A DNA stretch of 47,447 nt from IMG/VR virus record IMGVR_UViG_3300045988_093480, positions 1 to 47,447 of that record. One strand, written 5' to 3'. Shown here in pieces: positions 28,721-32,127 of the stretch (the stretch's first letter is position 1; the number at the start of each line of letters is the position of its first letter). The notes below the pieces were generated by a model. The model saw nothing but the letters and a program-made list of their open reading frames with translations. It was not told the origin of the DNA and did no database searches. Position numbers and translations under genes: made by a program. This DNA is from a virus.

Positions 28721-30124
28721 TTATGCATTCAATAATCTTGATGTATATCTTTCTATTGTATATTCATACGCATCTAGTGTATCTATGTCACTTGACCCAT
28801 CATCAAGTCTTACATCTTCAGTTATTTCTTTTGGGTCGTATATAGCACTACTAAGAGCAGTTTCTAAAGTATCACAATCATCTTTTTCATAGAAGAATCT
28901 ATTTTGGGATAATAGCATGCATGTGAGTTTTATTCTATCATTTATACAACTTTTCAATGCATCTGTTATTCTTACATTACCTAAATTTGCTTTTTTAGCT
29001 GAATTTCTTAATCCTCTTATTAATACTTGTTCAGCACTATCACAGTATACACATGTAATAAAACCATACTTATATATAATTTTCTTTAGAAAATCAACAA
29101 ATAAGTCTCCTAGTTTTATTGGGTCTATATCTCCAAAATGTCTTTCGCTAGCTAAAACTTTCACTTCTTTAAATCCTGGAGTAATACCAGTAGCTACGAA
29201 AGCATGTCCTGAACCAGTTCCACCAAAGTCAACTCCTATATTTATCTTCATAAACAAATCGCTATCAGATTTATTATTAAAATCTTTTAAAAGTTTATTT
29301 TTATCTTTCAAATCATTGTACTTGAATTGATATTGTTTCGGATTATTTGCAAAGCTTCTATATATAAGTCCTTCAGCAATACATCTTTTACCTAAAATAT
29401 CTCTTTGATACCAGATAGATGTTTTGTCATACTGAGATTTTATTTCATTTCGTCTTTCCTCTGTGATATTTATATTATCGTCTATTGTAAAATGCGCATA
29501 ATTATAACCCCCTAGAAGCTCACCTTTTTTATTTAAATCGTCATATTTATCAATATATTCTGTATAAATAGGGGCATTTGGATTATCTGGGTTGAGGTCC
29601 CAAAAGAATTTTCTTCTTTTAGCAGCAATAGTTCTGTTATAAGCTTCTTTTATTGTATTGTCATGATGTAAATTGATTTCTGTTGCAATCCACATGCCAT
29701 ATGAGTTACCTCTTATTTTCTTAAATGAGTTAGCTAATGCACCTCCTGAAAATATAACTATCTTTTGTTTATTTTTCGTTGAAGGTCCTTTTATATAAAG
29801 GCATTCATTCCCTTTATATTTTCCCCAATGACATTGACCTCTAAATATATATTCCAATCCAAAGCCATTAGCATCGCCGATATTAAGTTTCGCATTAGCA
29901 CTTGTAGATCCTGTCGCAAGATGTATTCTATCTGGAGTAGTTTTTAGTTCATGAGCAAAAGCATAAACGTTATCTACTGTTTTACCTGCTCTTACTGCTC
30001 CCTCTGCAAAATTAAAAGTATTTCTTACACAGTTTCTAATATAATTTTTATGTTTATCAGAAAAGTTAAATGGTATAGTTTTTTTCTTAGTTATCATCAC
30101 CATATAAATCACTATCCGTTTCAC
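28721..30124 (-). CDS. terL: Terminase large subunit
   Basis: Walker A GAVRAGKT and a C-terminal nuclease-like acidic region. The true start is probably the ATG at 30103 or 30097. Confidence 0.9.
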
Positions 30125-30929
30125 TTAAATCTTCTATCTCTGTATTATTACCAGTCAGCTTGTCAGTTTTTGCTTTTATATTATCTATTCTTGCTTTTTG
30201 TTCCTCTGTCGCTAGCTCTGGTTTATTATTTATAAGTTCAGAAGCTTGTTTTATAAGACTTCTAAGTTCTGACATTGCTCTAGATTGAGCATTTAAAAAC
30301 GTTGCTTGTCTATCCCATGCGAATTGAAATTCATATTCTATTTCTTCTCCAAACTCTGTGTCTTTATGCTTTTTAATCTCTTTAATCATTTCATTTTTAT
30401 CTTTTACATACATGATTTTTTGAGCTCTTATTATGGCAGCATATTGAATAGTTATTTGCTCTAATAGAATATCTAGTGGATTTTTCTCTTGTATTTCTTC
30501 TATTATTTCTAATGTATCATCTGGCAGATATTTTGAAAAAAATCCATGAGTTTCAGCTTTTTTATTCCCTATAGGACCACCAGGACCACCGATATTCCCA
30601 ACAGCATTTTTATTTCCTATAGGTGCTCCACCTAATGAGGTCGAGTTGGTTTTGGAACTTTTTTCATTTAATTTATTTAAATTACCACAATCGGCTCGTT
30701 TGCTAGTTTTTTTAACTTTTTTTGTATCTTTTTTATTAGTAACGTTCCTTTTGTTTTTTGGTAACGTTCCTTTTAATTTTTCTTCCCATTTGTCTTGGAA
30801 TTTCCACTTTCTAATTTGAGTATCTTTTGCATCAAGTTGTGTGGCAATATCTTTTAGCAAAATTTCTCCGTTATGTTGTTTATATATTTCAAATGCTTTA
30901 TCCCTGTTTGGACTTCTTGCTCTGGACAT
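30087..30929 (-). CDS. terS: Terminase small subunit
   Basis: N-terminal HTH ([25 protein letters not shown]), a Gly-rich linker, and position upstream of terL. Confidence 0.8.
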
Positions 30930-30943
30930 TTATCACCACCTCG

Positions 30944-31201
30944 TTATTTTTCTAATTTATTTATCAATTTATTTCTATATCTATTATCATTTGTTAATCT
31001 AATAAGATTTTCTATATCTCTTTTACTTAGCTTATCGTCAATCTCTCTTTTTATAGCCATAATAACCAGTATCTTAGCTTTATAAAAATTATTTACATGT
31101 GTATGTCCGTTTTCAAATTTCTTGTTTGTATTATGGATAACATATCCATAATCACATCTATAGATTGAATACTCTTTTCTCTGAAATATTTTTCTACTCA
31201 T
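30944..31201 (-). CDS. Hypothetical 85-aa protein, first gene after the late leader
   Basis: Start taken at the ATG at 31201, because the longer track ORF runs through the terminator and the tRNA-like element. Confidence 0.55.
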   Translation of the reverse strand: MSRKIFQRKEYSIYRCDYGYVIHNTNKKFENGHTHVNNFYKAKILVIMAIKREIDDKLSKRDIENLIRLTNDNRYRNKLINKLEK

Positions 31202-31230
31202 TTTTAGATCAACTCTTTCTTTGCACAACA

Positions 31231-31256
31231 AAAGGAGCCCATGAAGGGCTCTTTTC
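31231..31256 (-). terminator. Intrinsic terminator at the end of the late leader
   Basis: Minus strand reads AAAGAGCCC-ttca-TGGGCTCCTTTTGTTGT. Confidence 0.6.
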
Positions 31257-31313
31257 CAAATTGAGTATGAGATTAAAATCTGTTTCTGTTGTTGTATGAT
31301 AGTAATTACAATT

Positions 31314-31369
31314 AGCAAGCTACAGGATTCGAACCTGTATCACATAGGGGAGTGATTTCCATTACTTGC
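31314..31369 (-). other. tRNA-like element: perfect T-arm plus acceptor stem, with no D-arm
   Basis: ACAGG-TTCGAAT-CCTGT (31322..31338). 3' acceptor AGCTTGC pairs with GCAAGTA (31363..31369). Only 22 nt lie where the D and anticodon arms belong, and the would-be anticodon loop has 8 nt. Confidence 0.45.
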
Positions 31370-31601
31370 ATGTTGCTGGGATTACTCCCAGCTATTCATA
31401 ACCTTAAAGGAGGATGCATAACTATGCATCAAAAAAACCAATGTTTCGAAAAAAACTGTAGCAATTATACTAGTCAAATAGGTTACCAGGCTATCTGACA
31501 TTCAATAAGAGTTCGTAAAGGAAACAACCTTTTTATTAGAGTTTCTCTATACTATCATTATATTATCGGTAATCCCCTATGAAAACCCCACATATTCCCT
31601 A

Positions 31602-32087
31602 TTAAATCCCCAATGCTTCAACTCCCCACAATAAGATATTTAATTTATTTAATACCTCTTTTGCCCATCTTGCTGGAGTGTTCTTGCCTGTATTAAGTCT
31701 TTCGGCTATTTCTTCATATGTAATTTTTTCTATGTAATACATATGAAAAGCATCGTATATGTAATAAGTTCCGTTTTCTTCGTATTCATCAGCTAATATT
31801 TCTAATGATATATCTATACAAGAAACCATTTGTGCTGTTCTTGCTTTTGTTCTAAGTACGCTGTTAAGGAATATATCATTTTCTTCTAGTGCATCTTGTA
31901 ATTCTTCTCCAAAATATCCTTTGAAACCATCGCTATTAACTTTTTCTATATGATTTTTTAGTTTGTCGTAGTTTTTCATTAATAGTTTAGTATTGTGTAA
32001 TCTTTTATCTTTTTGTTGTTTTTTTATTTCAAATACTACTTCCTTAGCTAATTCTTTTACTTGTTCACTTACGTTTAATGTTGCCAT
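31602..32087 (-). CDS. Late transcription regulator (ArpU / sigma-70 region-4-like)
   Basis: 161 aa with C-terminal HTH YEEIAERLNTGKNTPARWAKEVLNKL. Last early gene before the packaging module. Confidence 0.65.
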   Translation of the reverse strand: MATLNVSEQVKELAKEVVFEIKKQQKDKRLHNTKLLMKNYDKLKNHIEKVNSDGFKGYFGEELQDALEENDIFLNSVLRTKARTAQMVSCIDISLEILADEYEENGTYYIYDAFHMYYIEKITYEEIAERLNTGKNTPARWAKEVLNKLNILLWGVEALGI

Positions 32088-32127
32088 GCTCCCACACTCC
32101 TGTTATAATATTATTAAGGAATTTGTC

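What the first reader, a model, noticed from the sequence alone, without database searches (positions are those of the whole stretch)
31202..31601. Late-operon leader with a tRNA T-arm/acceptor mimic, ending at an intrinsic terminator in front of the packaging genes
The 400-nt gap between the late regulator (31602..32087) and the first late gene is non-coding on the minus strand but highly organised. In transcription order it holds a TATAAT box (31464..31469), a 7+2+7 palindrome ATGCATA-GT-TATGCAT next to a CCUCCU tract, a 7-bp hairpin (31375..31393), a 56-nt tRNA-like element (31314..31369), and a clean rho-independent terminator (31231..31256) just before the ATG at 31201. The tRNA-like element has a textbook T-arm, ACAGG-TTCGAAT-CCTGT, and a 7-position acceptor stem (five Watson-Crick pairs, one G-U, one mismatch), but no D-arm and an 8-nt loop where the anticodon loop should be. 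The layout parallels lambda pR'-6S-tR', where a short terminated leader is read through only when the late regulator acts. The tRNA-like module is not explained by that model. It could be a processing signal (RNase P/Z), a decoy, or a relic of a tRNA-borne att site, although it lies about 30 kb from int.
Basis: partly seen in the sequence, partly recalled or inferred. Interest (0 to 1): 0.65.

Follow-up and report, generated by a model that had tools for sequence, protein, structure and literature searches.

The report
tRNA-like minihelix in phage late leader
The untranslated RNA in front of this gut Clostridia phage's packaging genes holds a conserved mimic of the acceptor and T arms of a tRNA; the same element sits unannotated in many relatives, including classic C. 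difficile phages, and is probably a cutting signal for the host's tRNA-processing enzymes.

Summary
On the minus strand, 31314..31369 folds into a 6-bp acceptor stem (position 7:66 unpaired), a canonical T arm (ACAGG-UUCGAAU-CCUGU) and a short hairpin. There is no D arm. A 7-bp hairpin ends exactly 5 nt upstream, and an intrinsic terminator (31224..31255) lies downstream. ARAGORN and Rfam 15 find nothing here.

Comparative data make it a structured RNA and not a relic. I found 58 distinct versions in 170 loci. On 30 representative acceptor/T-arm cores, 9 of 12 pairs show changes on both sides. G-U pairs fit only the transcribed strand. In most examined loci the unit lies between a sigma-region-4-like late activator gene and terS. 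Carriers include C. difficile phages phiC2, phiCD505, CDMH1 and phiMMP02/03, where the stretch carries no RNA annotation.

The conserved promoter is 31549..31562, behind 11-nt-phased GGG repeats. The att-relic idea is refuted. The lambda Q analogy is unproven: the regulator looks like an Ltr/RinA-type activator.

Most likely mechanism (inferred, not shown): a "t-element"-like signal cut by RNase P after the U at -1 and by RNase Z after the discriminator. I rate it a new variant of a known kind and easy to test.

The parts
31602..32087 (-). Late regulator gene (161 aa). It belongs to phrog_1558 and has a sigma-70 region-4-like C-terminal domain.
   Evidence: Pfam and NCBIfam give weak Sigma70_r4 hits. 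PHROGs places it in phrog_1558. In the AlphaFold model, about 75 C-terminal residues superpose on ECF sigma region 4.
31569..31612 (-). Four direct repeats in 11-nt phase (TGGGGATTTAA, TAGGGAATATG, TGGGGTTTTCA, TAGGGGATTAC). The first overlaps the regulator's stop codon. Inferred to be the regulator's binding sites.
   Evidence: Read directly from the sequence. GGG boxes recur downstream of homologous regulators. Loci with a DUF722 regulator carry TTTCCGTAAAAGTTCC repeats instead. This is the layout described for Ltr activators in PMC3753634.
31549..31562 (-). Probable late promoter -10 region: TATAAT (31557..31562) overlapping an extended -10, TGaTAGTAT (31549..31557). The inferred transcription start is near 31542.
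   Evidence: Scanner hit TTTTCA-17-TATAAT. The motif TGnTAGTAT plus (A/G)GAAA is kept across regulator homologues in L010, L041, L183, L184, L186 and L187. Homology to loci with a different regulator begins at about 31537.
31473..31499 (-). Hairpin 1: a 9-bp stem with the invariant loop YUGGUAA, which resembles a tRNA D loop.
   Evidence: 7 of 9 pairs change on both sides and 96% of cells are paired, against 26-46% in slid controls. It is also present in the tRNA-less leader type (L010). In C. difficile phages a hairpin with this loop sits directly 5' of the minihelix.
31464..31469 (-). It probably lies inside the transcript and is not the late promoter.
   Evidence: Not listed by the promoter scan, because there is no -35 at 16-18 nt. 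Replaced by other sequence in L003-type, type B, L183, L186 and L187 leaders.
31406..31430 (-). Hairpin 2 (the palindrome GAUGCAUAGUUAUGCAUC) followed by single-stranded CCUCCUUU, an anti-Shine-Dalgarno-like tract.
   Evidence: Fold z = -5.2. The stem sequence differs in relatives (GGCACAGACUUGUGCC and others) while CCUCC is kept.
31375..31392 (-). Hairpin 3: 7 bp with loop GUAAU. It ends exactly 5 nt before G1 of the tRNA-like element.
   Evidence: Fold z = -4.9. Three pairs change on both sides. A hairpin ends 5 nt before G1 in 44 of 57 distinct upstream segments.
31370..31374 (-). 5-nt single-stranded spacer AACAU. Consensus AAYRU, with U at -1.
   Evidence: Counts. U(-1) is found in all five lineages recovered without a T imposed at -1 by the search pattern.
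31314..31369 (-). tRNA-like element. Parts: acceptor 5' strand 31363..31369; linker AUGGAA 31357..31362; hairpin with C-rich 8-nt loop 31339..31356; T arm 31322..31338; acceptor 3' strand 31315..31321; discriminator U 31314. No CCA is encoded.
   Evidence: Fold. Covariation (9 of 12 core pairs change on both sides; 0 of 500 shuffles reach this). The covariance model R1 finds one copy per genome. ARAGORN and Rfam are negative.
31224..31255 (-). Intrinsic terminator (AAAAGAGCCC-UUCAU-GGGCUCCUUUUGUUGUG), 23 nt upstream of the first late start codon.
   Evidence: Scanner hit and fold. Equivalent hairpins with U tracts lie before the first late gene in L010, L135, L146, L183, L186, L187 and L247.
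30944..31201 (-). First late ORF (85 aa, phrog_9079, unknown function). It is followed by terS (30087..30929) and terL (28721..30124).

Best explanation
The element is a tRNA-like acceptor/T-arm minihelix built into the 5' leader RNA of the late (packaging, morphogenesis, lysis) operon. It works like a plant-mitochondrial 't-element' or the MALAT1 mascRNA module.

Proposed sequence of events:
1. The sigma-region-4-like activator binds the phased repeats just after its own gene.
2. It switches on the promoter at about 31549..31562.
3. The nascent leader folds into the minihelix.
4. Host RNase P cuts between the invariant U(-1) and G1 (31370/31369). The upstream leader is left ending in hairpin 3.
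5. RNase Z cuts after the discriminator (31314), because no CCA is encoded.
6. The 5' regulatory leader is thereby severed from the late mRNA. A stable tRNA-like RNA of about 56 nt is released, and the message gains a new 5' end about 110 nt before the first start codon.

Shown here: the structure, its conservation and covariation, its strand, its fixed place in the late leader, and the tRNA-processing-type sequence features.

Inferred, not shown: the cleavages themselves, their order and their benefit to the phage.
For: 1. The RNA structure is under selection.
- On 30 representative acceptor/T-arm cores, 90.8% of cells pair, against 31-47% in slid controls. 9 of 12 pairs change on both sides, which 0 of 500 shuffles reach.
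- T-stem pair 49:65 occurs as GC, CG, AU and UA.
- G-U pairs make the structure valid only on the transcribed strand.

2. What is conserved is the minimal substrate of the tRNA end-processing enzymes.
- Kept: the acceptor stem stacked on a T arm with G53-C61 and a loop U(U/G)C(G/A)A(A/U/C)U.
- Variable: the middle part runs from 8 to 42 nt, and the anticodon-like hairpin is absent in many versions.

3. Processing-type sequence features.
- U(-1) is invariant and a purine sits at -2.
- The spacer is a single-stranded 5-nt AAYRU.
- G1-C72 is invariant.
- Most versions encode no CCA: 74-76 is AAU or AAA in 20 of 49 cores and CCA in 4.
- The literature reports a U(-1) preference (and A(-2) in B. 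subtilis) and tolerance of acceptor/T-stem hairpin substrates (PMC4919922).
- In B. subtilis, RNase Z cuts CCA-less precursors after the discriminator, and RNase P acts first on precursors with long leaders (PMC1874595).

4. Precedent. Plant-mitochondrial t-elements carry GGTTCRANYCC in non-canonical cloverleaves, lie in mRNA leaders and are cut by RNase P/Z to make mRNA ends (PMC1920247).

5. Position.
- In most examined loci it lies downstream of a late-activator gene (phrog_1558, DUF722, DUF1492 or Sigma70_r4-like) and upstream of terS. Exceptions are L195/L209, L204 and L219.
- There is one copy per genome among the sources searched.
Against: - No RNA-end data were available, so cleavage is untested.
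- The acceptor sequence GCAAGUA and the unpaired 7:66 position are conserved more than RNase P/Z recognition needs. They recur even in lineages found through proteins alone (L186, L187). This hints at a further, sequence-specific partner.
- A few versions encode ACCA or GCCA (L194, L210, L242, L204). That would block RNase Z.
- Some leaders of the same regulator family lack the element yet keep the terminator (L010, L184, L041, L146). The element is therefore accessory and not needed for late expression as such.
- Cutting the leader downstream of a possible antitermination site has no obvious benefit.
- U(-1) and the acceptor sequence were partly imposed by my search patterns.
Confidence: 0.45

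Rival explanations
1. The functional product is a trans-acting small tRNA-like RNA. The leader is mainly a vehicle to express it strongly at late times, whether or not it is excised by RNase P/Z. It would act as a decoy or sponge for a factor that recognises tRNA acceptor/T-arm elbows, such as a tRNA-targeting abortive-infection toxin, the CCA-adding enzyme or EF-Tu. Alternatively, its C-rich loop could pair with Shine-Dalgarno sequences.
For: - The acceptor sequence GCAAGUA/NACUUGC and the 7:66 mismatch are conserved beyond what pairing requires.
- C-rich loops (CUCCCC, CCCCA, UCCCCUAU) recur, either in the middle hairpin or in the upstream hairpin.
- Some versions encode ACCA or GCCA.
- The element is accessory, in the manner of a moron.
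- It lies upstream of a terminator, so even terminated transcripts would yield it.
Against: - The C-rich loop is missing in type B (UUUA) and in the C. difficile-phage type.
- A search of the window for complements of the loop found no enrichment: 37 hits against 30 expected.
- The discriminator varies (U, A, G, C), which argues against one aminoacylation identity.
- No partner protein is encoded nearby.
Confidence: 0.2
2. The element is an uncleaved cis-acting structural module of the leader. It could be part of a machinery that lets RNA polymerase read through the terminator. One form of this would be a nut-like or put-like processive antitermination RNA, with hairpin 1 serving as a protein-binding or D-arm-like partner. 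Alternatively it could be a 5' stabiliser that shields the late mRNA from 5'-3' exonuclease or from Rho.
For: - A terminator lies between the promoter and the first late gene in seven of the eight leader lineages checked. Late transcripts must therefore pass it.
- Hairpin 1 has an invariant UGGUAA loop and a covarying stem. In C. difficile phages a hairpin with this loop sits directly next to the minihelix. This suggests the two act together, for example as a split tRNA-like fold.
- The leader is about 320 nt long, untranslated and highly structured.
Against: - Minimal leaders of the same regulator family carry promoter plus terminator only, about 35-140 nt, with no room for such an RNA (L041, L146). 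Read-through therefore cannot depend on the element.
- The distance from the element to the terminator ranges from about 35 nt (L247) to about 230 nt (type B).
- Ltr-type activators were the only phage protein needed for terS expression in staphylococcal and enterococcal phages (PMC3753634).
Confidence: 0.2
3. A sigma-70 promoter with -10 at 31464..31469 makes a short RNA of about 230 nt ending at the terminator. The 161-aa regulator acts like lambda Q to read through it.
For: - The TATAAT exists at 31464..31469.
- A conserved terminator precedes the late genes.
- Transcripts coming from upstream should stop there. PMC3753634 reports a terminator in the ltr-terS intergenic region.
Against: - There is no -35 at a usable spacing, and the site is not among the scanner's hits.
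- The hexamer is not conserved.
- Conserved, covarying RNA structure (hairpin 1) lies upstream of it.
- The motif that travels with each regulator family, phased repeats plus an extended -10, is at 31549..31612.
- The regulator shows only sigma-region-4-like similarity. No Q-family protein appears among the structural matches.
Confidence: 0.07
4. The element is a decaying pseudo-tRNA, or the tRNA-derived core of an attachment site, kept only by descent.
For: - The T arm is a perfect match to the tRNA consensus.
- In L033-type relatives, homology breaks exactly at the 3' end of the element.
- A large phage carries a related anticodon-arm-less tRNA-like with the same acceptor inside a tRNA array (L204).
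Against: - Compensatory changes occur at 9 of 12 pairs across many lineages.
- The minihelix is retained selectively while the middle part varies.
- The 21-mer has no exact match in 185,579 species-representative genomes.
- The genome is circular and int is about 30 kb away.
- The element includes the 5' acceptor strand, which an att core does not need.
Confidence: 0.03

Closest known systems
Plant-mitochondrial t-elements (tRNA-like processing signals; Forner et al. 2007, PMC1920247)
   Same: - Non-canonical tRNA-like folds that keep the GGTTCRANYCC T arm and an acceptor-like stem.
- Embedded in mRNA leaders or trailers.
- Proposed, and for cox1, ccmC and nad6 shown, to be cut by RNase P on the 5' side and RNase Z on the 3' side. 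This creates mRNA ends and a small stable t-element RNA.
   Different: - The system here is a bacteriophage operon leader in Firmicutes, not an organelle.
- The unit has an obligatory hairpin 5 nt upstream and a conserved acceptor sequence with 7:66 unpaired.
- Cleavage is not demonstrated here.
MALAT1/MEN-beta mascRNA tRNA-like modules (eukaryotic nuclei; as summarised in PMC4919922)
   Same: A tRNA-like structure inside a long transcript. RNase P and RNase Z cut it and release a small tRNA-like RNA.
   Different: Those modules define the 3' end of a long non-coding RNA. Here the module sits in a 5' leader upstream of a terminator and of protein-coding late genes.
Ltr/RinA/ArpU/DUF1492 late-activator systems of Gram-positive phages (Ferrer 2011, PMC3152322; Quiles-Puchalt 2013, PMC3753634)
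   Same: - A small sigma-region-4-like activator is encoded immediately upstream of terS.
- Regulator-specific direct repeats lie just distal to its gene.
- There is a terminator in the intergenic region.
- The repeat block and the rest of the intergenic region exchange as separate modules.
- Late transcripts are described as processed.
   Different: - The passages I searched in PMC3753634 mention no tRNA-like element or structured leader; I did not read either paper in full.
- The window's regulator matches none of the named Pfam families above threshold.
Lambda pR'-6S RNA-tR' with Q antitermination
   Same: A late promoter is followed by a short leader and an intrinsic terminator. The terminator must be passed to express the late genes.
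   Different: - The regulator is not Q-like.
- The promoter looks activator-dependent (no -35, upstream repeats).
- Lambda 6S RNA has no tRNA-like module.
Phage RNase P substrates that are not tRNAs: P1/P7 C4 RNA and P4 CI RNA (recalled from memory, not checked here)
   Same: Small phage regulatory RNAs cut out of an operon leader by RNase P. P4 CI then controls termination in that leader.
   Different: - The Rfam scans gave no match to any family, and if a C4 antisense RNA family is in the library, as I recall, it was not hit.
- Those RNAs act by antisense pairing and lack a canonical T arm.

Membership tests
Canonical tRNA gene | Cloverleaf with a D arm and an anticodon arm with a 7-nt loop, detectable by tRNA finders or Rfam RF00005 | tested here: not met
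   ARAGORN finds no gene in the window or in 12 related loci. There is no tRNA hit at E<=10 in 31000..31800. There is no D arm, and the middle part varies from 8 to 42 nt.
Canonical tRNA gene | T arm: 5-bp stem closed by G53-C61, with loop UUCRANY | tested here: met
   The window has ACAGG-UUCGAAU-CCUGU. G53-C61 is invariant in 30 of 30 cores, and four of the five stem pairs covary.
Canonical tRNA gene | 7-bp acceptor stem with an encoded or added CCA | tested here: inconclusive
   Six pairs are always formed, but 7:66 is unpaired in 28 of 30 cores. CCA is encoded in only 4 of 49 cores.
t-element-type tRNA-like processing signal | GGTTCRANYCC motif inside a non-canonical tRNA-like fold with an acceptor-like stem | tested here: met
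   GGTTCGAATCC lies at 31325..31335. Some relatives have GGTGCAACTCC, which departs from the motif at position 55.
t-element-type tRNA-like processing signal | Lies within an mRNA leader or trailer on the transcribed strand | tested here: met
   In most examined loci it lies between the late promoter motif and the first late gene. G-U pairs fit the sense strand only.
t-element-type tRNA-like processing signal | RNA ends coincide with the element's 5' and 3' ends; cut by RNase P and RNase Z | not testable with these tools
   No transcript-end data were available. U(-1), G1-C72, the 5-nt single-stranded leader and the lack of CCA are only compatible with it (PMC4919922; PMC1874595).
Lambda-type Q antitermination module | Regulator is a Q-family protein | tested here: not met
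   Only sigma-region-4-like similarity was found. No Q-family protein appears among the structural matches.
Lambda-type Q antitermination module | Intrinsic terminator between the late promoter and the late genes | tested here: met
Lambda-type Q antitermination module | Regulator-dependent read-through of that terminator | not testable with these tools
   This needs in vivo or in vitro transcription assays.
Ltr/RinA/ArpU late-activator system | Small sigma-region-4-like protein encoded directly upstream of the terS cluster, with cognate direct repeats just distal to its gene | tested here: met
   The repeats change with the regulator family. The description is in PMC3753634.
Ltr/RinA/ArpU late-activator system | Regulator is a member of a named family (RinA, ArpU, DUF1492, LtrC, Sigma70_r4 LtrA) | tested here: inconclusive
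   The window protein gives only sub-threshold Sigma70_r4/r4_2 hits (17 bits against a cut-off of 24-26). Relatives that carry the same leader have DUF722 or DUF1492 regulators.
tRNA-derived attachment site (attP core) | Adjacent to int and identical to the 3' part of a host tRNA gene | tested here: not met
   int is at 69..1196 on a 47,348-bp circle. There is no exact match to the T-arm/acceptor 21-mer in 185,579 genomes. The sequence covaries instead of being fixed.
Any Rfam 15 family | Match at the family's gathering score | tested here: not met
   No hit in the finding region. No hit on the element in 11 related loci, including C. difficile phages.

The most novel reading that the evidence does not exclude
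The late leaders of these phages carry a split tRNA mimic. One part is a D-loop-like hairpin (loop YUGGUAA). The other is an acceptor/T-arm minihelix with a conserved GCAAGUA acceptor and an unpaired 7:66. Together they would form a tRNA-shaped particle. This particle is either excised and CCA-tailed into an abundant late small RNA, or held in the leader. Its real job would be to engage a tRNA-recognising factor other than the processing enzymes. One possibility is to soak up a tRNA-targeting abortive-infection toxin that late proteins trigger. Another is to couple late-gene read-through to the state of the host's tRNA machinery, as a 'reverse T-box'.
Probability: 0.15. Interest if true: 0.9.

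Novelty: new variant of a known kind. Interest (0 to 1): 0.68.

Why it matters
- tRNA-like processing modules inside messages are established in plant mitochondria and mammalian nuclei. I found no description of one in a bacteriophage operon leader. Rfam 15 has no matching family. The full-text searches found no paper, including searches for the sequence itself.
- The element is not a curiosity of one metagenomic contig. It recurs, with heavy compensatory change, in 170 fetched loci (some are the same contig from two collections). These come from human-gut Clostridia and Peptostreptococcaceae phages and from the best-studied C. difficile temperate phages (phiC2, phiCD505, CDKM9, CDMH1, phiMMP02/03, phiCDHM19, phiCD508). 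In the two C. difficile phage records I inspected (phiC2, phiCD508) the stretch carries no RNA annotation.
- It adds an RNA layer to the Ltr/RinA model of late-gene control. That model governs packaging and therefore transduction of virulence and resistance genes.
- It may explain 'processed' late transcripts and 5' ends that have been read as transcription starts.
- It can be tested directly with existing C. difficile strains, prophage induction and end-mapping data.
- If the RNA acts in trans, it would be a new kind of phage-encoded tRNA mimic.

Tried and rejected
1. Known RNA families. Rfam at gathering score on the whole window, and at E<=10 on 31000..31800, gave only chance-level hits (SraG, STnc340 and others). 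ARAGORN found nothing.
2. Nucleotide BLAST of 30900..32100 against 50,697 phage records gave no match. BLAST of the element alone hit only generic T arms of unrelated phage tRNAs.
3. Host tRNA or prophage search. The T-arm/acceptor 21-mer and a gapped element pattern gave nothing in 185,579 genomes.
4. Coding leader. The ORF 31382..31501 is not conserved.
5. C-rich loop as an antisense seed. Complements in the window are not enriched, 37 hits against 30 expected. The loop is absent in type B and in the C. difficile-phage type.
6. Regulator as a Q-like antiterminator. The structure search found only sigma region 4.
7. Phage-encoded tRNA enzymes. None among 20 early-region proteins.
8. boxA-like tract (31501..31514) plus hairpin 1 as a nut site. 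I noted the resemblance from memory only. It was not tested and is not claimed.
9. The simple terminator scanner missed several relatives' terminators, so I folded them instead. One fold range (L041) was badly chosen and is uninformative.
10. Pellegrini 2003 on RNase Z determinants is not in the library.
11. The AbiF/RCd22 preprint found in passing concerns a different RNA.
Full report
**What is in the window**

The window is a complete, circularly assembled temperate phage genome. Bases 1..99 are identical to 47349..47447, and G+C is about 30%. It carries:
- an integrase (69..1196) and a cI-like repressor;
- antirepressors, RecT and replication genes on the early side;
- on the minus strand, a DNA methylase, a 161-aa regulator (31602..32087), a 400-nt gap, an 85-aa ORF (phrog_9079), terS (PF10668) and terL.

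TerL is 65-69% identical to the TerL of C. difficile phiCD38-2-like phages. Related contigs come from human-gut metagenomes.

**Check of the observation**

- hairpin 31375..31392;
- tRNA-like element 31314..31369, with T arm ACAGG-UUCGAAU-CCUGU, acceptor GCAAGUA/AGCUUGC (one G-U, and A.A at 7:66), and a 5-bp stem with an 8-nt C-rich loop;
- palindrome 31413..31430 followed by CCUCCUUU;
- terminator 31224..31255;
- TATAAT at 31464..31469.

ARAGORN and Rfam 15 find nothing. The only ORF in the gap is not conserved. Statistics within the window alone are modest.

**Comparative evidence**

The exact T-arm/acceptor 24-mer occurs in 27 viral contigs. A 16-mer from the 5' half, a gapped pattern in metagenomes, and protein-anchored look-ups then recovered variants and independent lineages:
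- Type A: the window's own type.
- Type B: L134-L136, including a Clostridium sp. isolate. Acceptor GCAGACA/AGUCUGC, T stem AUAAG/CUUAU.
- L187.
- L183: a Peptostreptococcaceae MAG. Acceptor GAGAGUA/AGCUCUC.
- L186: Paraclostridium bifermentans. Only 11 nt lie between the acceptor and the T arm.

A further pattern scan found about 35 more versions. BLAST placed one of these in 27 deposited C. difficile phage genomes, among them phiCD505, CDKM9, CDMH1, phiCD508, CD1801, phiMMP02, phiMMP03, phiC2 and phiCDHM19. In the two records I inspected (phiC2, phiCD508) the stretch carries no RNA annotation.

In total I collected 58 distinct elements in 170 loci. Some of these loci are the same contig from two collections.

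**Covariation**

- On the hairpin-3-plus-element alignment, 96% of cells pair, against 26-38% in slid controls. Six pairs change on both sides.
- On the acceptor/T-arm core of 30 representative versions, 9 of 12 pairs change on both sides. 0 of 500 shuffles reach this. For this alignment the variable middle part was replaced by a fixed linker.
- T-stem pair 49:65 occurs as GC, CG, AU and UA.
- G1-C72 and G53-C61 never vary.
- Position 7:66 is unpaired in 28 of 30.
- G-U pairs are frequent, so the fold exists only on the transcribed strand.
- A covariance model finds one copy per genome. It finds none in leaders that lack the element.

The middle part varies from 8 to 42 nt and often has no hairpin. 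What is selected is therefore the acceptor/T-arm minihelix.

A stable hairpin ends exactly 5 nt before G1 in 44 of 57 distinct upstream segments. Its loop falls into one of three classes: GUAAAA/GUGAAA, CUUGGUAA, or C-rich. The spacer is AAYRU.

One caveat applies. Two of my patterns imposed T at -1 and the GCAAGTA word. Even so, U(-1) holds in the five lineages found without that constraint.

**The rest of the leader**

*Regulator module.* Four GGG boxes in 11-nt phase (31569..31612) start inside the regulator's stop codon. They are followed by TATAAT overlapping TGaTAGTAT (31549..31562). Homologous regulators in other phages keep GGG boxes and the extended -10. Loci with a DUF722 regulator carry TTTCCGTAAAAGTTCC repeats instead, joined to the same leader from window position about 31537 onward.

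*Match to the Ltr model.* This is the modular layout described for Ltr/RinA/ArpU/DUF1492 late activators. That layout has direct repeats just distal to the gene, exchangeable downstream intergenic DNA, and a terminator in the intergenic region (PMC3753634). The regulator's model has a C-terminal domain like ECF sigma region 4 and nothing Q-like.

I place the transcription start near 31542, which makes the leader about 320 nt.

*Hairpin 1* (31473..31499). It has an invariant YUGGUAA loop, and 7 of 9 stem pairs change on both sides. The loop resembles a tRNA D loop; this comparison rests on my own knowledge. In C. difficile phages a hairpin with this loop is the one that sits 5 nt before the minihelix.

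*Terminator.* A hairpin with a U tract immediately precedes the first late gene in seven of the eight leader lineages checked, including a minimal leader without any tRNA-like part (L146); the fold of the other minimal leader, L041, was uninformative.

**Interpretation**

The element is a structured RNA module of the late-operon leader. Three alternatives are excluded:
- It is not a tRNA gene: there is no D arm, the anticodon arm is absent or variable, and no detector finds it.
- It is not an att relic: it covaries, has no genomic match, and lies far from int.
- It is not a DNA-level site: the G-U pairs are strand-specific.

What is conserved is the minimal substrate of the tRNA end-processing enzymes, together with their known preferences:
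- RNase Z cuts CCA-less precursors after the discriminator. RNase P acts first when the 5' leader is long (PMC1874595).

The closest analogues are plant-mitochondrial t-elements, which use the same T-arm motif to direct RNase P/Z cuts that create mRNA ends (PMC1920247), and mascRNA.

I therefore commit to processing by RNase P and RNase Z as the most likely mechanism, with confidence 0.45. Only the structure, the sequence features and the position are shown. The cleavages are inferred.

Several features are not explained by processing alone:
- the conserved GCAAGUA acceptor;
- the 7:66 mismatch;
- the recurring C-rich and CCUCCUU tracts;
- the D-loop-like hairpin;
- the few versions with an encoded ACCA.

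These keep two other roles open: a trans-acting or decoy role, and a cis structural role (about 0.2 each). The element is accessory, because related leaders lack it. How late transcripts pass the terminator remains unknown.

**Novelty**

No Rfam family matches. No paper in the library describes the element, including searches for the sequence itself. I classify it as a new variant of a known kind: tRNA-like modules embedded in longer transcripts. It is widespread, and it can be tested directly in C. difficile phages.

Noticed in passing
window 2676..2794 (minus strand): A solitary CRISPR repeat (Rfam CRISPR-DR7, 41.9 bits, 2745..2781). A TGCTATAAT -10-like box precedes it. About 35 nt after it comes a hairpin with a U tract. 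This looks like a one-repeat mini-array or solitary repeat unit on a phage, and so a candidate RNA-based anti-CRISPR.
   Followed up: partly
window 1..99 and 47349..47447: An identical 99-nt overlap at both ends. The window is a circular assembly of 47,348 bp.
   Followed up: yes
window 31473..31499; L010 3574..3596; L135 ~2552..2578; L247 2808..2831: A hairpin with an invariant YUGGUAA loop (tRNA D-loop-like) and a strongly covarying stem. It is present even in leaders without the tRNA-like element. In C. difficile phages it abuts the minihelix. It appears to be a second undescribed leader motif.
   Followed up: partly
window 31406..31413; L202, L211, L215, L222 just 3' of the minihelix: Single-stranded CCUCCUU(U) tracts resembling the anti-Shine-Dalgarno end of 16S rRNA. 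They follow hairpin 2 in the window and directly follow the acceptor (ACCUCCUU) in other lineages. Their function is unknown.
   Followed up: no
window 31235..31251 and relatives (L028, L030, L032, L061): The terminator hairpin occurs with its loop in both orientations (UUCAU or AUGAA) on an identical palindromic stem, as if the hairpin had been inverted.
   Followed up: no
L204 655..708: A 113-kb phage contig has a tRNA array (Trp, Ser, Gly by ARAGORN). Within it lies an anticodon-arm-less tRNA-like with the same GCAAGUA acceptor, a D arm, a T arm and an encoded GCCA. It may point to the origin of the minihelix.
   Followed up: partly
L195/L209 (element at L195 ~3024..3064): One version of the element lies between a capsid-like gene and the next structural gene, not in the late leader.
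   Followed up: no
L186 3076..3717; L197; L247 2995..3747; L128-L133: Accessory genes are often inserted between the leader/terminator and terS in relatives. Examples are Abi_alpha, antirepressor, T5orf172, HNH and IS605-type transposase genes. The junction behaves as a moron insertion site.
   Followed up: no
window 46631..46678: Three to four tandem copies of the 12-mer CTGGTTTTAATG at the start of ORF 46652..47344, next to the repressor gene.
   Followed up: no
L220 8941..9010: Rfam GP20-b RNA (37.9 bits) in a related phage contig. It is unrelated to the finding.
   Followed up: no
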